From contig OZ024740.1 in NCBI GenBank assembly GCA_964016885.1, forward strand, positions 199,764,001 through 199,828,000: a stretch of 64,000 bases of DNA. The letters run 5' to 3'. This document shows, piece by piece, positions 9,780 to 64,000 of the stretch; within the stretch, counting starts at the first letter, position 1; each line of letters begins with the position of its first letter. Below the pieces are notes generated by a model that worked only from the letters and a program-made list of their open reading frames with translations, made no database searches and was not told where the DNA came from. Source of the stretch: Eledone cirrhosa (taxonomy: Eukaryota). The position numbers and the translations under genes are program-made.

Positions 9780-9830
<51 letters not shown>

Positions 9831-10352
9831 ATATTTGGGGAGGGTCATATTTGCGTAATATTGCCAGAATTAATAACAGAACACACTCACTGTTTGGTTG
9901 GTTTTCGCTTCTCGCTGTCTTTTATATATATATATCTGCGATCTAACTTACTCGGTCCTCAATGTTGCCATTGACTGACCGGCGGTCAAAAATAATACAG
10001 ATACAATATAGACAAACACATATATATATAGTTTACATAATTTACATAAATCTTTCGTTGCACATCTGCAACATCGTCAGTGGTGTTATATTCATTGTTC
10101 CTCCTGTTGTGTTGTATGTCTACGCCATTTTTTTTGTTCAGTCTGTCTATATATTTATTTATTTATTTGCTTGTTTGTTTATCTTATTTTATTTTGTCTT
10201 CTTTGCGCATGCGTTTGCGTGTGTGTATAGTGTTATGTGTGATGTGTGACTAGTGTGTATAGTGTTGTGTCTGCTGGGTGACTAGTGTGTGTTTATGTGC
10301 CCGTGCATGCATCTATCTATCCCATTTTACCCCATCCAATTTACCCATCTAT

Positions 10353-10969
10353 TTACACTTCCCCCAGGTCAGTGTTGTTTGTTTGGGTGTTGTTGTTGTT
10401 CCACTCATTCTTTCTGTTTAGCTTTGGTCTTCTAATTTCTATTTCACTGGCCTCTCTGATTTGCCTATCTGCTGGGTCATTCCTATGTTTAGATATTATT
10501 CTAATTTCTATGTTGTCTATGTTACCGTCATGTTGTTGTCTAGCATGTTCGTATAGTACTGACCCGTTTTTTCGTCCTTTTAGTTCCCCCCAGTGTTGGT
10601 CTATCCTTTCACCTATGCTACGAGCTGTCTCACCTATGTATGTTGTTGTCGTGTTTCTGCAAGTACCCTCTGTACATCTTATGCTATAGACTACGTTTCT
10701 AGTTTTACAGTTTATCCGGGGGTTCACCTTACATATGATACATTTCCTATTGGTACAGTGGGTTTTCTTAAAAGGGTAGGTTTTGCTGATCAGGGATTTT
10801 ATGGTGGTTCCTGGCTTTTCTACCACCTTTATTTTTTAAGTGGGTCTTTCTCAGGGCCTTTCTACACTGGTTAGCTAATTTCCCTCCAGGGGTGGCGTCC
10901 ACAAACATGACACTCTGATATCTCTGGTTGTCGTACCATGATGTGGCCTTCCCTATCTTATGTCTAGCC
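10353..10969 (-). pseudogene. Inverted duplicate of the PLE linker/GIY-YIG coding region
   Basis: ORF 10353..10826 matches the C-terminus of the 10928..12379 ORF. Confidence 0.9.
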
Positions 10970-12379
10970 AAAGCTATACGGACCCCCCAAAACACTGATC
11001 GGGTAAGAAAAATGTTCGCACATGCAATAGGGGCTAGTATCAAAACTACCCTAAAGGGCCACATATTTAAGTTCAATGAGAAAATCTACACCCAAAATGA
11101 GGGAGCAGCCATCGGCGTCAGCATAGCTGGTGATGTTGCCAAACTTTTCATGGTATGGTGGGAAAGGAGACTTAAAAATCTCCTTAATGAAAGCTCCATA
11201 GACCTCATCATGTACTCTCGTTATGTAGACGATATCAATATAGTTATAAGAACACCCCCACTAGAGAGCACTAACAAGTTTGATTTAGAACGTAGCACGA
11301 TGGAAAGCATCCAGCAGATAGCTAATTCCATACACCAGAGTATAACTGTAACTATAGACTTCCCTTCCAAACACCCTAACAATAGACTACCTGTATTAGA
11401 CACAGAACTCTGGATTAACACTATAGACGAGAGAGCTCAAATTCTCCACTCACACTATGCTAAACCCATGGCCTCCAAATACCTGATACTCAAAAACTCA
11501 GCAATGTCCAGTAGTGCTAAGTTTAATATTCTGATCGCAGATTTGGTACGAGTGATGAAGAATGTGTCCAGCATGTGCGACCCAACAGAAATGGAAGGAC
11601 ACATCCAACACTTCATCAACCGCATGCAGTTCTCTGGCTACAACCAAAGAGACAGAGTCAGAGTTTACGAAGGAGCCATGGAAAAGTATAAGACCCTCAT
11701 AGAACTGGACATGAAAGGAATTTGCCCACTATACAGGAGCAAATCATGGAATAGCTTAGATAGGGCTAGACATAAGATAGGGAAGGCCACATCATGGTAC
11801 GACAACCAGAGATATCAGAGTGTCATGTTTGTGGACGCCACCCCTGGAGGGAAATTAGCTAACCAGTGTAGAAAGGCCCTGAGAAAGACCCACTTAAAAA
11901 TAAAGGTGGTAGAAAAGCCAGGAACCACCATAAAATCCCTGATCAGCAAAACCTACCCTTTTAAGAAAACCCACTGTACCAATAGGAAATGTATCATATG
12001 TAAGGTGAACCCCCGGATAAACTGTAAAACTAGAAACGTAGTCTATAGCATAAGATGTACAGAGGGTACTTGCAGAAACACGACAACAACATACATAGGT
12101 GAGACAGCTCGTAGCATAGGTGAAAGGATAGACCAACACTGGGGGGAACTAAAAGGACGAAAAAACGGGTCAGTACTATACGAACATGCTAGACAACAAC
12201 ATGACGGTAACATAGACAACATAGAAATTAGAATAATATCTAAACATAGGAATGACCCAGCAGATAGGCAAATCAGAGAGGCCAGTGAAATAGAAATTAG
12301 AAGACCAAAGCTAAACAGAAAGAATGAGTGGAACAACAACAACACCCAAACAAACAACACTGACCTGGGGGAAGTGTAA
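10970..12379 (+). CDS. PLE reverse transcriptase (C-terminal part), Cys-rich linker and GIY-YIG endonuclease; 5'-truncated, no internal stops
   Basis: Motifs QNEGAAIGVSIAG, YSRYVDDI, LPVLDTELWI, HYAKPMAS, CTNRKCIICK, NVVYSIRC..YIGETARSIGERIDQH and REASEI..PKLN. The first ~14 codons of the called ORF (from 10928) come from the inverted arm. Confidence 0.92.
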   Translation, partial: KAIRTPQNTDRVRKMFAHAIGASIKTTLKGHIFKFNEKIYTQNEGAAIGVSIAGDVAKLFMVWWERRLKNLLNESSIDLIMYSRYVDDINIVIRTPPLESTNKFDLERSTMESIQQIANSIHQSITVTIDFPSKHPNNRLPVLDTELWINTIDERAQILHSHYAKPMASKYLILKNSAMSSSAKFNILIADLVRVMKNVSSMCDPTEMEGHIQHFINRMQFSGYNQRDRVRVYEGAMEKYKTLIELDMKGICPLYRSKSWNSLDRARHKIGKATSWYDNQRYQSVMFVDATPGGKLANQCRKALRKTHLKIKVVEKPGTTIKSLISKTYPFKKTHCTNRKCIICKVNPRINCKTRNVVYSIRCTEGTCRNTTTTYIGETARSIGERIDQHWGELKGRKNGSVLYEHARQQHDGNIDNIEIRIISKHRNDPADRQIREASEIEIRRPKLNRKNEWNNNNTQTNNTDLGEV

Positions 12380-12645
12380 ATAGATAGGTAAATTGGATGG
12401 GGTAAAATGGGATAGATAGATGCATGCACGGGCACATAAACACACACTAGTCACCCAGCAGACACAACACTATACACACTAGTCACACATCACACATAAC
12501 ACTATACACACACGCAAACGCATGCGCAAAGAAGACAAAATAAAATAAGATAAACAAACAAGCAAATAAATAAATAAATATATAGACAGACTGAACAAAA
12601 AAAATGGCGTAGACATACAACACAACAGGAGGAACAATGAATATA

Positions 12646-12690
12646 ACACCACTGACGATGTTGCAGATGTGCAACGAAAGATTTATGTAA
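12646..12690 (+). ncRNA. HHR-like motif in the PLE 3' region (inverted copy at ~10043-10086)
   Basis: cca-CTGACGA-t.gttgca.gatg.tgcaac-GAAA-gatt-TA-tg. Stem II is good; stems I and III are weak. Confidence 0.55.
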
Positions 12691-12967
12691 ATTATGTAAA
12701 CTATATATATATGTGTTTGTCTATATTGTATCTGTATTATTTTTGACCGCCGGTCAGTCAATGGCAACAATGAGGACCGAGTAAGTTAGATCGCAGATAT
12801 ATATATATAAAAGACAGCGAGAAGCGAAAACCAACCAAACAGTGAGTGTGTTCTGTTATTAATTCTGGCAATATTACGCAAATATGACCCTCCCCAAATA
12901 TAACAATATCTGTTTCGACACACGATTTCATATAAAAAACCTCGCAAAACTATATATATATATATAT

Positions 12968-13936
12968 ATAACAATATATTTAGAAACACACAGATACATG
13001 CGGACACACACATATACATGAATGCATCCGCACCCAACTGTGAGTTAATGGTGCCAACTTCACCGATGTTGCTCAATGAATGACTGGGACAGACCAATCC
13101 AGTTGAACTAGACTGAACCAGTATCAGAGTTAAACATACATTATGAAGAGAGAAGAAACATTTAGATATAATTAGTAATAAAATGTATCATACCTAAACT
13201 GCTTCTAGATTCCTCGACTACGTAGTTTCGTGGCATAAACAAAAACAATATATCATAAAGATATAGAGTCCTTGCGAGGTCTGCCGACTTATTAAGAGGA
13301 TACCTCATTTTACTAGTCTCAAGAACGCGTCTACACGACGTGAGAAAGAATCCCAAAAGGCGGAGGGGGAAATAGTCACGCGATATAAAGGTCGAGAAAC
13401 AGAGCTAAGCCTCTTATAACCCCGAAGAAAATACCACGGAGGCGGAGGGGGTATTTATATCGAAGCCGTATATGTGTGTCCCCGCATGTATCTGTGTGTT
13501 TCTAAATATATTGTTAATAACTCCCTCTGGTCGAGCAATCTTTGAAGTGTTGGGACAGCTGGAAAGCTTCCATTACTCATACTTCTTGCCTCCTTCACCA
13601 CCTCTTCTACGGCTTCGATATAAATACCCCCTCCGCCTCCGTGGCATTTTCTTCGGGGTTATAAGAGGCTTAGCTCTGTTTCTCGACCTTTATATCGCGT
13701 GACTATTTCCCCCTCCGCCTTTTGGGATTCTTTCTCACGTCGTGTAGACGCGTTCTTGAGACTAGTAAAATGAGGTATCCTCTTGATAAGTCGGCAGACC
13801 TCGCAAGGACTCTATATATTTATGATATATTGTTTTTGTTTATGCCACGAAACTACGTAGTCGAGGAATCTAGAAGCAGTTTAGGTATGATACATTTTAT
13901 TACTAATTATATCTAAATGTTTCTTCTCTCTTCATA

Positions 13937-13941
<5 letters not shown>
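12968..13941. mobile_element. Head-to-head pair of circularly permuted copies of a ~590-nt HHR-bearing element
   Basis: Arms 12968-13470 (-) and 13470-13941 (+). HHR at 13779-13866: cctc-TTGATAA-gtcggca...tgccac-GAAA-ctacgtag-TC-gagg. Confidence 0.8.
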
Positions 13942-13994
<53 letters not shown>

Positions 13995-15596: not shown

Positions 15597-15780
15597 ACAA
15601 AGGAATTGTGGTAAGGAACCAGATGGGCCATAACTCACCAGAGTACAAAATACTTAGGGTTGTATATATATATAGGAAAAAGCATGACCCCGACGGCTGA
15701 GCTCAAGCCGTTTCGACGAGTCCAGAAATAACCGTCGAAACGGCTTAAGCTCTACCGTCGGGGTCATACTTTTTCCTATA
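15595..15780 (-). mobile_element. Palindromic mini-element (family C); other copies at 25214-25417 and 51497-51686
   Basis: Inverted arms ccccgacggctgagctcaagccgtttcgacg / cgtcgaaacggcttgagctc, plus a one-sided tail tgtggtaaggaaccagatggaccataac. Flanked by (TA)n. Confidence 0.8.
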
Positions 15781-15793
15781 TATATATATATAT

Positions 15794-42870: not shown

Positions 42871-42881
42871 CATATATATAT

Positions 42882-45800
42882 ATGAATATAGACATAGAAT
42901 ATTCGAAAATATTCTGTATGTTTACAATAAACATTTTGAAGACCTAATCGCTATAGAATAGAATACGTCACGTATTACAATTAGATTCTCGATAAAAGCA
43001 AGGGAAGTAAGTCTACGCGTTTCATTCTTGTTAGAATTCATCAGGACTACATATCCAGTGCTTTTATCGAGAATGACACAGCTAGAGACTTATAGAATAC
43101 TTAGCTGTGTACAGGAACTGGTTTGAAAGAGCGGTTGCCGGTCCGGCAGAAATTAGAAATTGGAATAAATGCTCTGAAATAGCGATATATATGTGAATAT
43201 AGACATAGAATATTCGAAAATATTCTGTATGTTTACAATAAACATTTTGAAGACCTAATCGCTATAGAATAGAATACGTCACGTATTACAATTAGATTCT
43301 CGATAAAAGCAAGGGAAGTAAGTCTACGCGTTTCATTCTTGTTAGAATTCATCAGGACTACATATCCAGTGCTTTTATCGAGAATGACACAGCTAGAGAC
43401 TTATAGAATACTTAGCTGTGTACAGGAACTGGTTTGAAAGAGCGGTTGCCGGTCCGGCAGAAATTAGAAATTGGAATAAATGCTCTGAAATAGCGATATA
43501 TATGTGAATATAGACATAGAATATTCGAAAATATTCTGTATGTTTACAATAAACATTTTGAAGACCTAATCGCTATAGAATAGAATACGTCACGTATTAC
43601 AATTAGATTCTCGATAAAAGCAAATCGAGAATCTAATTGTAATACGTGACGTATTCTATTCTATAGCGATTAGGTCTTCAAAATGTTTATTGTAAACATA
43701 CAGAATATTTTCGAATATTCTATGTCTATATTCACATATATATCGCTATTTCAGAGCATTTATTCCAATTTCTAATTTCTGCCGGACCGGCAACCGCTCT
43801 TTCAAACCAGTTCCTGTACACAGCTAAGTATTCTATAAGTCTCTAGCTGTGTCATTCTCGATAAAAGCACTGGATATGTAGTCCTGATGAATTCTAACAA
43901 GAATGAAACGCGTAGACTTACTTCCCTTGCTTTTATCGAGAATCTAATTGTAATACGTGACGTATTCTATTCTATAGCGATTAGGTCTTCAAAATGTTTA
44001 TTGTAAACATACAGAATATTTTCGAATATTCTATGTCTATATTCACATATATATCGCTATTTCAGAGCATTTATTCCAATTTCTAATTTCTGCCGGACCG
44101 GCAACCGCTCTTTCAAACCAGTTCCTGTACACAGCTAAGTATTCTATAAGTCTCTAGCTGTGTCATTCTCGATAAAAGCACTGGATATGTAGTCCTGATG
44201 AATTCTAACAAGAATGAAACGCGTAGACTTACTTCCCTTGCTTTTATCGAGAATCTAATTGTAATACGTGACGTATTCTATTCTATAGCGATTAGGTCTT
44301 CAAAATGTTTATTGTAAACATACAGAATATTTTCGAATATTCTATGTCTATATTCACATATATATCGCTATTTCAGAGCATTTATTCCAATTTCTAATTT
44401 CTGCCGGACCGGCAACCGCTCTTTCAAACCAGTTCCTGTACACAGCTAAGTATTCTATAAGTCTCTAGCTGTGTCATTCTCGATAAAAGCACTGGATATG
44501 TAGTCCTGATGAATTCTAACAAGAATGAAACGCGTAGACTTACTTCCCTTGCTTTTATCGAGAATCTAATTGTAATACGTGACGTATTCTATTCTATAGC
44601 GATTAGGTCTTCAAAATGTTTATTGTAAACATACAGAATATTTTCGAATATTCTATGTCTATATTCACATATATATCGCTATTTCAGAGCATTTATTCCA
44701 ATTTCTAATTTCTGCCGGACCGGCAACCGCTCTTTCAAACCAGTTCCTGTACACAGCTAAGTATTCTATAAGTCTCTAGCTGTGTCATTCTCGATAAAAG
44801 CACTGGATATGTAGTCCTGATGAATTCTAACAAGAATGAAACGCGTAGACTTACTTCCCTTGCTTTTATCGAGAATCTAATTGTAATACGTGACGTATTC
44901 TATTCTATAGCGATTAGGTCTTCAAAATGTTTATTGTAAACATACAGAATATTTTCGAATATTCTATGTCTATATTCACATATATATCGCTATTTCAGAG
45001 CATTTATTCCAATTTCTAATTTCTGCCGGACCGGCAACCGCTCTTTCAAACCAGTTCCTGTACACAGCTAAGTATTCTATAAGTCTCTAGCTGTGTCATT
45101 CTCGATAAAAGCACTGGATATGTAGTCCTGATGAATTCTAACAAGAATGAAACGCGTAGACTTACTTCCCTTGCTTTTATCGAGAATCTAATTGTAATAC
45201 GTGACGTATTCTATTCTATAGCGATTAGGTCTTCAAAATGTTTATTGTAAACATACAGAATATTTTCGAATATTCTATGTCTATATTCACATATATATCG
45301 CTATTTCAGAGCATTTATTCCAATTTCTAATTTCTGCCGGACCGGCAACCGCTCTTTCAAACCAGTTCCTGTACACAGCTAAGTATTCTATAAGTCTCTA
45401 GCTGTGTCATTCTCGATAAAAGCACTGGATATGTAGTCCTGATGAATTCTAACAAGAATGAAACGCGTAGACTTACTTCCCTTGCTTTTATCGAGAATCT
45501 AATTGTAATACGTGACGTATTCTATTCTATAGCGATTAGGTCTTCAAAATGTTTATTGTAAACATACAGAATATTTTCGAATATTCTATGTCTATATTCA
45601 CATATATATCGCTATTTCAGAGCATTTATTCCAATTTCTAATTTCTGCCGGACCGGCAACCGCTCTTTCAAACCAGTTCCTGTACACAGCTAAGTATTCT
45701 ATAAGTCTCTAGCTGTGTCATTCTCGATAAAAGCACTGGATATGTAGTCCTGATGAATTCTAACAAGAATGAAACGCGTAGACTTACTTCCCTTGCTTTT

Positions 45801-45944
45801 ATCGAGAATCTAATTGTAATACGTGACGTATTCTATTCTATAGCGATTAGGTCTTCAAAATGTTTATTGTAAACATACAGAATATTTTCGAATATTCTAT
45901 GTCTATATTCACATATATATCGCTATTTCAGAGCATTTATTCCA

Positions 45945-45949
<5 letters not shown>
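42882..45949 (+). mobile_element. Retrozyme-like 311-bp tandem array: 2.4 units (-) joined head-to-head to 7.5 units (+), 9 HHRs
   Basis: CTGATGA at 43884, 44195, 44506, 44817, 45128, 45439 and 45750 (+), and at 43038-43044 and 43349-43355 (-). Units look identical. Strand switch at 43623/43624. (TA)n on both flanks. Confidence 0.92.
43878..43921 (+). ncRNA. Minimal type I hammerhead ribozyme (representative array copy)
   Basis: gtagtc-CTGATGA-attct.aaca.agaat-GAAA-cgcg-TA-gac(t)tac. Complete core, 5-bp stem II, palindromic CGCG stem III, predicted cleavage after GUA. Confidence 0.88.
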
Positions 45950-56909: not shown

Positions 56910-57392
56910 AATAAGTAGAAGTGCATCATCGCGGTACAAACCACCGTTGAGGTAAGGGAGGTCCTTATGGATTTCATTGAGGAGGTATAGGCCGACCAAA
57001 TCAGTGACCTGCGCCGAGTCACTAGATCCCATGGTTATGTCGAAATTGTTGTGCGTATCCTTGCGTGTCCATAGTTGGTCCTCGAAGGTGATTATGGTTT
57101 TACGGGCCGCAAGGATGACATCAACCTGGGCTCTAGTCAGGTCGCTATTGCTCATGGCCATGATAAGTGGCTTATTTAATAGGATAGGGGAAATAGAGGT
57201 GTAGTATGAATTGATATCAAATTGAATACATTTTTTTGTTCTTATTATTCTTGATATCCTTGAACCATTCAATCACTTCACCCGTATTTCCCCATTGTTT
57301 AAGGTGTATCTTGTGTTTAATTTGTGGGATGATTTTATCCAAAATCTTCTTGCTGATAATACCAATGTCGGACTTGGAAGGGCAGATAAGTC
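56910..57392 (-). pseudogene. Inverted 5' part of a PLE RT (one frameshift)
   Basis: RLICPSKSDIG..QWGNTGEVIEWF..QFDINSYYTSI..FDITMGSSDSAQVTDLVGLYLL..GLYRDDALLLI. Confidence 0.9.
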
Positions 57393-58797
57393 TTTGTACC
57401 ACGATGATGCACTTCTACTTATAGAATATAAAAAATTTAATATAGAAAGAACTAGAAAACAATTGCATAAGACATTCAAAAACTTTAACCTTAGTATCAC
57501 CATGGACAAAAACACTAAACATGTTAACTTCCTAGACGCCACACTATACCTAGACTCAAAAATATATACACCTTTCCATAAGCCTAACGAGAAACTTATT
57601 TACGTAGATACCAAGTCTAATCACCCTAGATCAATATTAAACTCTATCTCTAAGGGGGTGTCCAATAGAATCTCTAGTCTGTCCTATGACGCAAACATAT
57701 TTAGCAAAAACTCACAATATTACAATCAAGCATTAGCTAGCTCCGGCCATAATATAGAAATTGAGTTCCTACCTAAGAAAACACATAGCTACAACATCAT
57801 CTCGCACAACATGTCCATGAGGAAACCTAATAATAGGAATAGCAACCACAAGTGCAGCAAAGCGGAGGGTGCCACCGGAAGTAACCATTACCATGGAAAC
57901 TGCTGTGGGGCCTTAGGAGGAAGCAACACACCAAATACTAAAAGCAAAAATAGAAGAAGAAATAATACATTTTTCAACCCTCCTTTCAACCTAAATGTCT
58001 CCACCAACATACCTAGGGCTTTCTTCTCACTACTAGATAAAAACTTCCCTCTAGGACACAAGTACCACAACCTCTTAAACAAAAACACCATTAAAATCTC
58101 ATACTCTACGACGCCTAACTTAGCATACCACGTAGCTAGCAGCAATAATAGTAAAATTAGTTCTTACTTCCAACAAACAAAATCACAACGGGATGCAAAC
58201 CCTCTAAATACCACTGTAGCAAGCAACCATAGCAACGGCAGTAACAATAGAAATAACACTAGTATAAGTAATAACACCAGGGTTGTCAACCCGAACGCCC
58301 AAAATCCTATAGCTACCACACAGACTTCCGCACTGCATTATAACCAGCGGACTAACGCACAGGATAATTGTAACTGTAGAGCTAATAGAACCTGCCCTTT
58401 AGATAAAAAATGCCTAACCAAGGATATCATATACTCATGCACCGTCACAACTAGCAACTCTTCAGAAACCTATGTAGGCTCCACTTCTAACTGCTTCAAA
58501 ATCAGATATAATTCGCACATCCACTCGTTCAAAAAGCACAGTCTAGCAAACTCCACCTCACTTTCTAGCTACATACACTATCTAAAATCTAAAAATAAAC
58601 CATACACACTCAAATGGGAAGTGATAGGCAGCGCGACCTCGTACAAACCACCTAATAAATTTTGTAACCTCTGTATACTAGAGACACACAATATTATCTT
58701 CTCCAACAGTAACCTACTTAACAAAAAATCTGAGGTGTTTGCAACTTGCCAGCACCGCTTCAGACATTCCTTCCAAAACTTTAAGCCCAATATATAG
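57393..58797 (+). CDS. PLE RT C-terminus, Cys linker and GIY-YIG endonuclease (Nematis-like architecture); 5'-truncated
   Basis: LYHDDALLLI, VNFLDATL, PFHKPNEKLIYV..SNHP, FFNPPFN, KISYS, CNCRANRTCPLDKKC, IIYSC..TYVGST..FKIRYNSH, CNLCILE, LLNKKSE..CQH. Confidence 0.9.
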
Positions 58798-61582: not shown

Positions 61583-62119
61583 ATATACACACACACATAT
61601 ATATATATATATATACACACATACACACATACACACGCACATACATATAAATAATAAAAATACGTATATATGTATGTACACATAAGCCTGTCAGCATATG
61701 CGCCCACATACAACCTTATGTGAGTACTTTTAAAAACCTAGTTGGTAAGTAAGGACAAGGGGGAGTAAAACTGAAATAAAATAATAAAAACAATTATTTA
61801 GAACAGGTAAGAGAGAAAAGGGGTTTAAAATGTTGTAGTAGAGAGTGAGTGTTTGTGATGAGATCTGGATAAGGGTATATAGTTAAAAAGTGATATGGGT
61901 AAAGGATGAAGGTGGTGGGTGTGTATAAAGGTATGGTAGACAGTAGGGGGGGGGGGGGGATTATAAGTCAAATGAAAAAAAAAGAAATAAAAATAAAGCA
62001 ATATATAGAAAGAGATGAGAGAGTAAATGTAAATATTGGTAGAAAGTATGTGTTCATAAAGTAATGATATTGGTAGTAAGTGGAAGGCGTGATAAGGTGG
62101 TTGAGTAATCGTTGGTGTG

Positions 62120-64000
62120 TTAATCCAGTTAAAATGTAGATGCGATTTCAGGTGCGGACAACATCTAAAGATGTCGGTCTTAGAGTTGAGACAAGTGGGA
62201 GGGGTTTTCAAGTTTTGGAGAATTCTTAATTTTTCCGTAGTACACAAAGAACATTTCTTTGTGCTCTTTTGGTATTCTCTTGAATGTTCTAAAATAGTCC
62301 AATCAATTGTGTACGGATGTTTTTTGTCTTTAAACTCCCACACTTTATCTGCCAGCGCCGTTGCTGTTCTTTTTTCGGGGTGTTTGAAAGAAGCGACAGG
62401 TACATAGTACCTGGTTTTCAATTTTGTTTGAGTCATGCCAACATATCGTTCACTCCTGGTTGGCTGGTTATTAATCATCAGTGTCAATTTGGCCTCATAC
62501 ACAATAGATTTGGTATTACATTTACCCTGTAATGGGCATTCTTCCGGCTTCCTACAACTGCATCCTGGATTTACTCTAGTATCATTAGAGTTTGTAATTT
62601 TAGTTTTCATTGATGGGCAGCAAGAGTAGCTGATTTTAACTACATTTCTATTAAATATCTTATTATATCTATGATTAGGGGGAAAATGTTTGTCTAGGAG
62701 GTCGAGGAATTTTCTTCCAGTTAGAGAGAAGGGGATGTAAACCATAACAATTTTTCTTTTCCTGTTATTGTGTTTAGTGTTAGAAAGAGGAGTATGTAAA
62801 TATCTAATTTGTTCGGTGAAGCCGCTGTTATTGTGGACCTTATTATAATAAGGGCGGCTTTGTTAAAAATGTCTATAGACAAAGATAAGGTAGAGATCCT
62901 ACGGCTAATATTAGGAATAATATTTTTAAAGACTATAGAGGGATGGCAAGACTCTTTGTGTCTATATCTTAAAATTTCATTAAGTTTATAAGGTTTAAAA
63001 GAGGCGGTAAGTAGGTCAAGATTGATATCAAGAAAGTTATTATTAGTAAGATTCGTATCTATAGTAATTTTAGGGTTTAGGTTAGCAAAGGTATTGATTA
63101 AGTCTTTACAGAATTTATCAAATTTATGGCTGTTGTTGGTATGAGAAACTGCCAAACCGCCCTCTCGGTATAAACCGATATTATTGCAAAGAAATTTCTC
63201 TTTAAGGGTGTGGAGGAGGAATAATCCTACTAAGTCGCACACATGGGCACTATCATATGAGACCATCGCAATATCAAAAGAGTTTTCAGGGCTTCATTTT
63301 TTAACCCAAGTACCTTCATTAGCAAAGATTAGTGTTTTCCTAGCATGAAAGATAACGTCTTCTAATTTAGAAATATTAATGAAAAGTCTAACAAAATGTA
63401 ACGATTCAGTGGTAGAGAGGTAAAAATCAACAATATCAAATTGGGTAAATCTACACTTATTTTTTCCTCGTATATTATTAAACCAAGATATAACAGAGGA
63501 TGAATTTAACCACTGAGATAAGTCAGTCATATTTTTCTTAACATTTTTTTTACTCGCAAGACCAATTTCAGATTTAGCAGAGTTGATTAGTCTACAACTA
63601 GGTCGATTAATAAAGTCTAATTTATCGTGGTCTTTAACAACTTTACGTTTAGCTAGGTTTTCATTCCGGTTATCAATGTTTAAAGTACTAGTTAGGGCTT
63701 TAGCTTCATTATTAATGGTATTGTAAGTATTAATGTTAGCTATTTGGTATTTAGCCGTAATGCTATCTGTTAACAGTTCGTTATACGAGTCATTATTTAC
63801 TTCAAAAAGATTTTTGGTTTTGTCAGAAAAAACTAAAGTATTTGTAGAGTGTTTAAAATTAGAGATGACGTTAAAGAGTTTGGATTGAAAAGTATTGTTG
63901 TACTTACGGTATTTTAACTCACTAGTTAAGTTAGCTTGTCTATTTCGAAGTTGGCCATGTCCTTAACTCTAGGTGGGCATTTGCGAGATTTAACGTCAAA
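62120..64000 (-). pseudogene. Decayed PLE RT + GIY-YIG (Nematis-like), running off the window end
   Basis: Frameshifted ORFs give FSDKTKNLF, RLINSAKSEIG, QWLNSSSVISWF, QFDIVDFY, MVSYDSAHVCDLVGLFLL, GLYREGGL (YRDD lost), NFLDINLDL, CSCRKPEECPLQGKC, IVYEA..YVGMT and CSLCTTEK. Confidence 0.9.

What the first reader, a model, noticed from the sequence alone, without database searches (positions are those of the whole stretch)
12968..13941. Two inverted arms that only assemble into a ~590-nt circle
Seen: the right arm reads A(13470-13514), B(13515-13607), C(13608-13941). The left arm, on the minus strand, reads C, D(13136-13016), A. Order A-B-C plus C-D-A closes to a circular A-B-C-D monomer. It contains one HHR-like motif (cctc-TTGATAA...GAAA-ctacgtag-TC-gagg, palindromic stem III, long stem II insert). 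Inference: both arms were copied from a circular or multimeric RNA, starting at different phases.
Basis: partly seen in the sequence, partly recalled or inferred. Interest (0 to 1): 0.75.

Follow-up and report, generated by a model that had tools for sequence, protein, structure and literature searches.

The report
Twin-armed Penelope-spread hammerhead retrozyme
These two mirror-image arms are one insertion of a 593-base, protein-less repeat that has thousands of copies and a predicted self-cutting RNA motif; a Penelope-type retrotransposon enzyme likely copied it onto both DNA strands from two fixed start points, probably from a single-unit RNA circle that has not yet been observed.

Summary
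Both arms belong to a young, non-coding family with a 590-595-nt unit that also occurs as head-to-tail arrays; 2376 exact copies of one end exist. Arms end outward at only two unit positions (473 and 42-50) inside (TA)n; their inner ends are scattered. Among 70 consecutive insertions, 44 of 46 inverted ones pair one end of each type and none pairs two short ends. This is the Penelope-like (PLE) inverted-copy-plus-tail footprint, with a long tail of about 165 nt. The unit carries a conserved U3-A8 minimal hammerhead with a possible pseudoknot. Arms and tandem units of one insertion share haplotype (about 1% discordance against 43% between loci) and private variants, which points to a single-unit template, most simply a circle. 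No RNA was seen, no mobilising PLE was found, and 5' ends do not peak at the cut site. It is a new member of the animal non-LTR retrozymes; this scan noted the same architecture in other families before.

The parts
12968..13470 (-). Left arm, 'long-end' type: unit positions 139 to 47-50 of the next unit (C, D, A), 3' end outward into (TA)n
13468..13942 (+). Right arm, 'short-end' type: unit positions 595/1 to 473 (A, B, C), 3' end outward into (TA)n
13468..13470 (.). Head-to-head junction of the two 5'-truncated arms, 3-nt overlap GTA
   Evidence: sequence
12968..13135 (-). Tail (D plus A, about 165 nt) between the two fixed ends; predicted two hairpins with compensatory changes between subfamilies
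13772..13867 (+). Type I minimal hammerhead, U3-A8 core: stem I 13778-13782/13863-13867, core 13783-13789, branched stem II, GAAA 13849-13852, palindrome 13852-13861, predicted cut after 13862; possible pseudoknot 13772-13776 with 13798-13802
13211..13306 (-). Second hammerhead copy, core G5 mutated to A at 13293, predicted inactive
12951..12970 (.). Left (TA)n target tract, which is also the end of a neighbouring truncated coding PLE
13943..13986 (.). Right (TA)n target tract; a target-site duplication cannot be read in it

Best explanation
This is one insertion of a non-coding, hammerhead-bearing tandem repeat with thousands of copies, likely made by a borrowed Penelope-like enzyme that cut both strands of a TA repeat and primed one arm at each of two fixed sites on the RNA, probably a single-unit circle copied round more than once. 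Shown: unit and arrays, two fixed outer ends, scattered inner ends, one-of-each pairing, TA target, shared haplotype within insertions, conserved ribozyme fold. Inferred: target-primed reverse transcription by a PLE dimer in trans; the structured tail places the two start sites; a tandem transcript self-cleaves through dimeric hammerheads and is ligated; strand-displacing synthesis gives multimer arms; the two cDNA ends join by microhomology.
For: Fixed ends: 2376 exact short-end junctions, 1024 long-end junctions on the forward strand alone. Pairing: of 70 consecutive short-end loci, 46 inverted, 44 with a long end, 2 odd, 0 short/short; 23 of 24 inverted loci in the first set; 0 long/long among 15 long-end loci picked for lacking a listed partner (12 direct, 2 short, 1 odd). 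Same ends in sister subfamilies at about 82% and 74% identity. A coding PLE family of the same genome (938-aa ORF) has a U3-A8 hammerhead and its own two ends at +110 and +176, paired on opposite strands in TA tracts at L194, L198, L202, L262, L263. In vitro a PLE cuts both strands and starts at two internal sites that bound the tail (PMC11167929). Template longer than a cut monomer: in 43 of 43 resolved inverted loci at least one arm passes the cut site, and 37 of 43 total more than one unit. Single-unit bottleneck: at 16 common SNPs arms differ at 10 of 952 and tandem units at 9 of 1134 comparisons, against 43% between loci, with 28 haplotypes in 88 loci; 47 rare variants are shared by all copies within 28 of 83 insertions, up to 8 copies across both arms, unrelated to locus age (rho 0.015); this locus has two (positions 220, 238). 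No indel in about 245 passes through the cut site. Ribozyme columns 53 of 55 unchanged across three subfamilies against 197 of 288 elsewhere (p 2e-6). Circular fold z -6.8 against 30 shuffles.
Against: No RNA, circular or linear, was observed. No coding PLE with detectable homology to the unit was found among 50 endonuclease loci and the window. 5' ends do not pile up at the cut site: 2 of 49 listed direct junctions start exactly there, 17 start at a TA microhomology nearby. In the one PLE tested in vitro, ribozyme cleavage was not needed and uncut RNA was the main template; minimal hammerheads cleave poorly alone; 8 of 9 frog retrozyme dimers did not cleave. Variants present in only some copies recur within a lineage more than background (17 of 34 pairs against 24%), though mostly at a CpG and in one older lineage without fixed phase. 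Five of 56 loci have arms that differ at common SNPs. Hammerhead stems and the pseudoknot are nearly invariant, so they lack compensatory support, and the minimum-energy folds do not show the active form.
Confidence: 0.6

Rival explanations
1. Same PLE twin priming, but the template is an uncut linear tandem transcript from source arrays; no circle is involved and the ribozyme is incidental.
For: Arrays exist. Uncut RNA was the dominant template in vitro. No peak at the cut site. Some excess of shared partial variants within a lineage.
Against: Linear copying alone cannot homogenise units or regenerate long arrays, yet 28 haplotypes are each homogeneous within insertions and private variants fill up to 8 copies. 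The ribozyme is conserved far beyond its flanks.
Confidence: 0.22
2. A linear single-unit RNA is copied repeatedly by the enzyme jumping from its 5' end back to its 3' end, which mimics a circle.
For: Explains the single-unit bottleneck equally. A few arms start exactly at the cut site (L124, L132, L032 and one older copy in L045).
Against: No indels at the cut site in about 245 passes; jumps are usually imprecise (recalled). No other fixed internal scar was seen.
Confidence: 0.1
3. DNA-level origin: a fold-back (MITE-like) element or satellite whose arms were inverted and homogenised by recombination or gene conversion.
For: Arms are 99% identical inverted repeats; conversion can homogenise repeats (established knowledge).
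Against: Outer ends are two different fixed points and inner ends are scattered; a third of insertions have one arm only; shared private variants do not grow with age.
Confidence: 0.04
4. Assembly artefact (fold-back chimera of long reads).
For: This copy's junction was not bridged in the listed contigs.
Against: Arms differ at 5 sites, have unequal, non-mirror content, and follow a family-wide rule; both end types appear as loose ends in independent contigs.
Confidence: 0.02

Closest known systems
Metazoan non-LTR retrozymes (Cervera and de la Pena 2020, PMC7229834; Li, Clavereau and Pollet 2026, bioRxiv 10.64898/2026.07.22.740005)
   Same: Non-coding tandem units with one type I hammerhead each, dispersed monomers to multimers, low GC, highly paired predicted fold; unit length lies inside the 51-972 bp range of Li et al.; PLE mobilisation and circular templates were proposed there.
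   Different: Minimal U3-A8 core with a long branched stem II and a possible pseudoknot rather than the canonical motif; two fixed ends, inverted pairs and a TA target, which the parts I read do not describe ('inverted' occurs 0 times in PMC7229834); circles not shown here; no homologous pLTR found.
Insertion footprint of endonuclease-bearing PLEs: 5' truncation, partial tandems, adjacent inverted copy, one-sided tail, (TA)n bias (Craig et al. 2021, PMC8557442; Arkhipova et al. 2013, PMC3846280; Frangieh et al. 2024, PMC11167929)
   Same: Whole architecture; two start sites downstream of the hammerhead bounding a structured tail.
   Different: No ORF; tail about 165 nt against 30-40 nt in print (66 nt and about 45 nt in two coding families here); the one-of-each pairing is counted here.
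Minimal PLE hammerheads, including the U3-A8 variant of Schistosoma Cercyon (Cervera and de la Pena 2014, PMC4209133)
   Same: Short helix I, palindromic helix III, U3-A8 core, G-C first pair of helix II, pairs of motifs on opposite strands 100-700 bp apart.
   Different: Helix II carries a 50-nt branch; a 5-bp pairing between the 5' flank and loop II resembles the stem I-II pseudoknots of Perreault et al. 2011 (PMC3088659).
L1 twin priming (recalled, no call)
   Same: Two target-strand primers give head-to-head arms with 3' ends outward.
   Different: Here both priming sites are fixed and the arms overlap in sequence, which needs a circular or tandem template.

Membership tests
Non-LTR retrozyme | Tandem units, each with a complete type I hammerhead | tested here: met
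   L031 three identical units; 328 motif copies aligned, core intact in most
Non-LTR retrozyme | No coding capacity, no LTR | tested here: met
   No ORF of 170 aa inside the unit apart from chance read-throughs; indels between subfamilies break frames; ends are not terminal repeats
Non-LTR retrozyme | Dispersed, recently mobile copies | tested here: met
   2376 junctions; 95-100% identity
Non-LTR retrozyme | Self-cleavage | not testable with these tools
   Conservation only
Non-LTR retrozyme | Expression as linear and circular RNA | tested here: inconclusive
   No RNA holder listed; only contigs could be laid
Non-autonomous PLE | Fixed 3' ends, variable 5' truncation, partial tandems | tested here: met
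Non-autonomous PLE | Adjacent inverted copy with tail on one end only | tested here: met
   44 of 46 inverted loci; tail longer than published
Non-autonomous PLE | Microsatellite (TA)n target | tested here: met
Non-autonomous PLE | Sequence homology to the pLTR of a coding PLE of the same genome | tested here: inconclusive
   None among 50 endonuclease loci out of 10596 candidates; only analogous ends in one coding family
Autonomous PLE | RT plus GIY-YIG ORF between pLTRs | tested here: not met
   None of 70 sampled insertions encloses an ORF; L129 abuts a decayed RT fragment at its 5' end
Minimal type I hammerhead | Core YUGANRA, GAAA, UH, three helices, palindromic helix III | tested here: met
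   99% of cells pair over 33 pairs in 28 distinct rows, against 34-54% when slid; core helices invariant, so no covariation proof
Plant LTR retrozyme | Type III hammerhead in LTRs, 4-bp TSD | tested here: not met
   Type I topology, no LTR

The most novel reading that the evidence does not exclude
The genome records a Penelope enzyme dimer loading one circular ribozyme RNA, firing from two structurally fixed sites onto the two target strands and rolling round the circle, so that PLE tandem/inverted structure in general comes from circular templates; the family's pseudoknotted U3-A8 hammerhead is an active switch that makes the circle.
Probability: 0.4. Interest if true: 0.72.

Novelty: new member of a known kind. 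Interest (0 to 1): 0.45.

Why it matters
That animal retrozymes are spread by PLEs through circular RNA has been proposed since 2014-2020 but rests on co-occurrence and pLTR homology. This family offers thousands of young insertions whose ends, pairing and haplotypes can be counted, and these favour one template per insertion and a single-unit bottleneck. It is a compact substrate (595 nt, two defined start sites) for testing how PLEs make inverted and tandem copies, which is still open. The classes themselves are known, and the scan has met the architecture in other families.

Tried and rejected
Rfam: no family reached its threshold; only TA-repeat noise. RNA search: no RNA holder listed. Contigs laid: a run of organism B holds one closed 620-nt contig equal to a 590-nt unit plus overlap, and small run X5 is dominated by one variant; run kinds are unknown and a tandem array gives the same picture, so neither is used as evidence. 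Partner hunt: blastn/nhmmer against 50 GIY-YIG loci and the window found only family copies and simple repeats; L235 and L247 lie near PLE ORFs but are separated by TA tracts; L129 abuts a decayed RT fragment, a single case; a loose-end motif had no match. Peak of 5' ends at the cut site: not found. Two primers on one circle without strand displacement: rejected, 20 of 43 loci exceed both limits. Anticorrelation of arm lengths (rho -0.38 and -0.50) vanished once long loci were resolved (rho -0.18, p 0.24). Indel sites near TA runs and the long end were dropped from the haplotype test as alignment artefacts (25 sites, 16 kept). Paper searches listed no paper on one-of-each end pairing or twin priming in PLEs or retrozymes; subscription papers and the supplements of the cited papers were not seen and may hold such descriptions.

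Full report
Observation. The arms are as described: C is repeated in inverted form at 332/335 identity and A at 50/53. I number the unit from window position 13470 (A 1-45, B 46-138, C 139-472, D 473-595). The right arm runs 595 to 473 on +, the left arm 139 to 47-50 on minus. Their 5' ends meet at a GTA overlap and both 3' ends run into TA tracts.

The family. The window lies in a 3.0-Gb genome. The right arm has many 97-98% matches, among them three at 595-base spacing; that locus, L031, holds three identical units. Exact counts: 2376 junctions of position 473 with TATATA and 1024 forward-strand junctions of position 42-50 with TA (the reverse count of 2783 is inflated by overlapping matches). 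Two older subfamilies at about 82% and 74% identity have periods of mostly 588-595 and the same ends.

Two fixed ends, one of each. In the first 38 loci, 24 were inverted and 23 paired a short end (473) with a long end (42-50); one was odd. Because that set was biased, I took the first 70 listed short-end sites on contig 1: 24 single-arm, 46 inverted; 44 had a long-end partner, 2 had odd ends, none a second short end (with four edge cases resolved; two of the 44 are a local duplicate and one was already in the first set). Fifteen long-end sites without a listed partner gave 12 single-arm, 2 short partners, 1 odd, no long/long pair. Inner ends are spread over the whole unit. The borders that defined A, B, C, D at 13470 and 13608 are therefore accidents of this copy; the meaningful borders are 473 and 42-50.

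Ribozyme. Stem I is 5 bp, the core reads UUGAUAA (U3-A8), stem II has a bulge and a branch, helix III is the palindrome ACUACGUAGU and the cut is predicted after C13862. In 30 natural copies of three subfamilies 99% of cells pair, against 34-54% for slid partners; only the stem II branch shows a two-sided change. GAGGU just 5' of stem I can pair with ACCUC in loop II in 28 of 28 distinct rows; it may be a stem I-II pseudoknot as described in PMC3088659 (passages) or an inhibitory alternative fold, as RNAalifold draws it. These columns are unchanged in 53 of 55 cases against 197 of 288 elsewhere. The left-arm copy has lost G5. Activity is untested. The tail between the two ends folds into two hairpins, with four pairs changed on both sides between subfamilies (each is about one evolutionary event).

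Template. A linear unit cut at both ribozymes would allow arms of at most 80 and about 250 nt; in 43 of 43 resolved inverted loci at least one arm is longer, so the template was circular, tandem or re-entered. At 16 common SNPs, two arms of one insertion differ in 10 of 952 comparisons and tandem units in 9 of 1134, against 43% between loci; 88 fully typed loci fall into 28 haplotypes. Rare variants shared by every copy inside an insertion occur in 28 of 83 loci, in up to 8 copies over both arms, and do not rise with age; this locus has two that no other of 128 loci carries. I infer that each insertion descends from one unit very recently and that both arms came from the same template or the same source. 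A circle explains this most simply. Caveats: one active source per cell would also give matching arms; partial variants recur within a lineage somewhat above background; 5' ends show no peak at the cut site (2 of 49); no RNA was available.

Mobiliser. The genome is rich in GIY-YIG elements. No homologous pLTR was found. One coding family shows the same design: U3-A8 hammerhead, ends 110 and 176 nt after its start, paired on opposite strands in TA tracts, and an ORF just after the long end; its end sequences resemble ours by eye (pyrimidine tract then TATA; TTTCTAA then TATAT). A truncated coding PLE with inverted arms and a tail of about 45 nt directly flanks the finding. Calling these Neptune-like rests on the cysteine motif and C-terminal nuclease described in PMC8557442; I built no tree.

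Comparison with print. PMC8557442 (passages) and PMC3846280 (passages) describe the inverted truncated copy and the 30-40-bp one-sided tail. PMC11167929 (parts 1-2 of 4) shows both strands cut and two internal start sites bounding the tail, and that cleavage is dispensable in vitro. PMC4209133 (parts 1-2 of 4) describes minimal and U3-A8 motifs and proposes circular templates. PMC7229834 (passages and parts 2 and 4 of 6) shows retrozyme circles and names PLEs as likely mobilisers. The 2026 preprint (parts 1-3 of 5; supplements not seen) links retrozymes to pLTRs. Earlier notes of this scan report the same footprint in other families of this and other genomes; none matched this sequence. My reading was formed before I saw them.

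Verdict. A real, young non-LTR retrozyme with a PLE footprint: about 0.9 for PLE-type twin priming, about 0.6 for that plus a circular template. New member of a known kind, useful as a test system. Interest 0.45.

Noticed in passing
window 9826-12950: Truncated coding PLE (ORF 10919-12379, RT C-terminal part and GIY-YIG-like end) with inverted terminal arms, a short end on the left and a tail of about 45 nt on the right; the finding sits in its terminal TA tract.
   Followed up: partly
window 42874-45948: Second, unrelated retrozyme-like insertion: 311-nt period, CUGAUGA minimal hammerhead, nearly 100% identical units, 7 motif copies on + and 2 on minus, with two different outer ends about 28 nt apart in TA tracts.
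   Followed up: partly
window 15654-15790: Small near-palindromic element between TA tracts.
   Followed up: no
window 57226-58794 (+) and 61828-63962 (-): Further long ORFs that look like PLE fragments; the first has a weak GIY-YIG match.
   Followed up: no
L189, L194, L198, L202, L262, L263: Coding PLE family with U3-A8 hammerhead and paired ends 66 nt apart; a candidate enzyme for in vitro tests.
   Followed up: partly
L129:1449-3656: Decayed PLE RT fragment joined without a TA tract to the 5' end of a family copy, same strand; template switch or later deletion.
   Followed up: partly
L045:115-430: Older-subfamily insertion whose short arm begins exactly at the predicted cut site and whose long arm begins 10 nt downstream; fits copying of a cut linear RNA.
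   Followed up: partly
run X4 (organism B): The only full match is one closed contig of a 590-nt unit variant at low depth; circle, single array or contamination cannot be told.
   Followed up: no
family-wide: 33 of 120 SNP pairs show all four allele combinations, which suggests recombination or template switching between haplotypes, or recurrent mutation.
   Followed up: no
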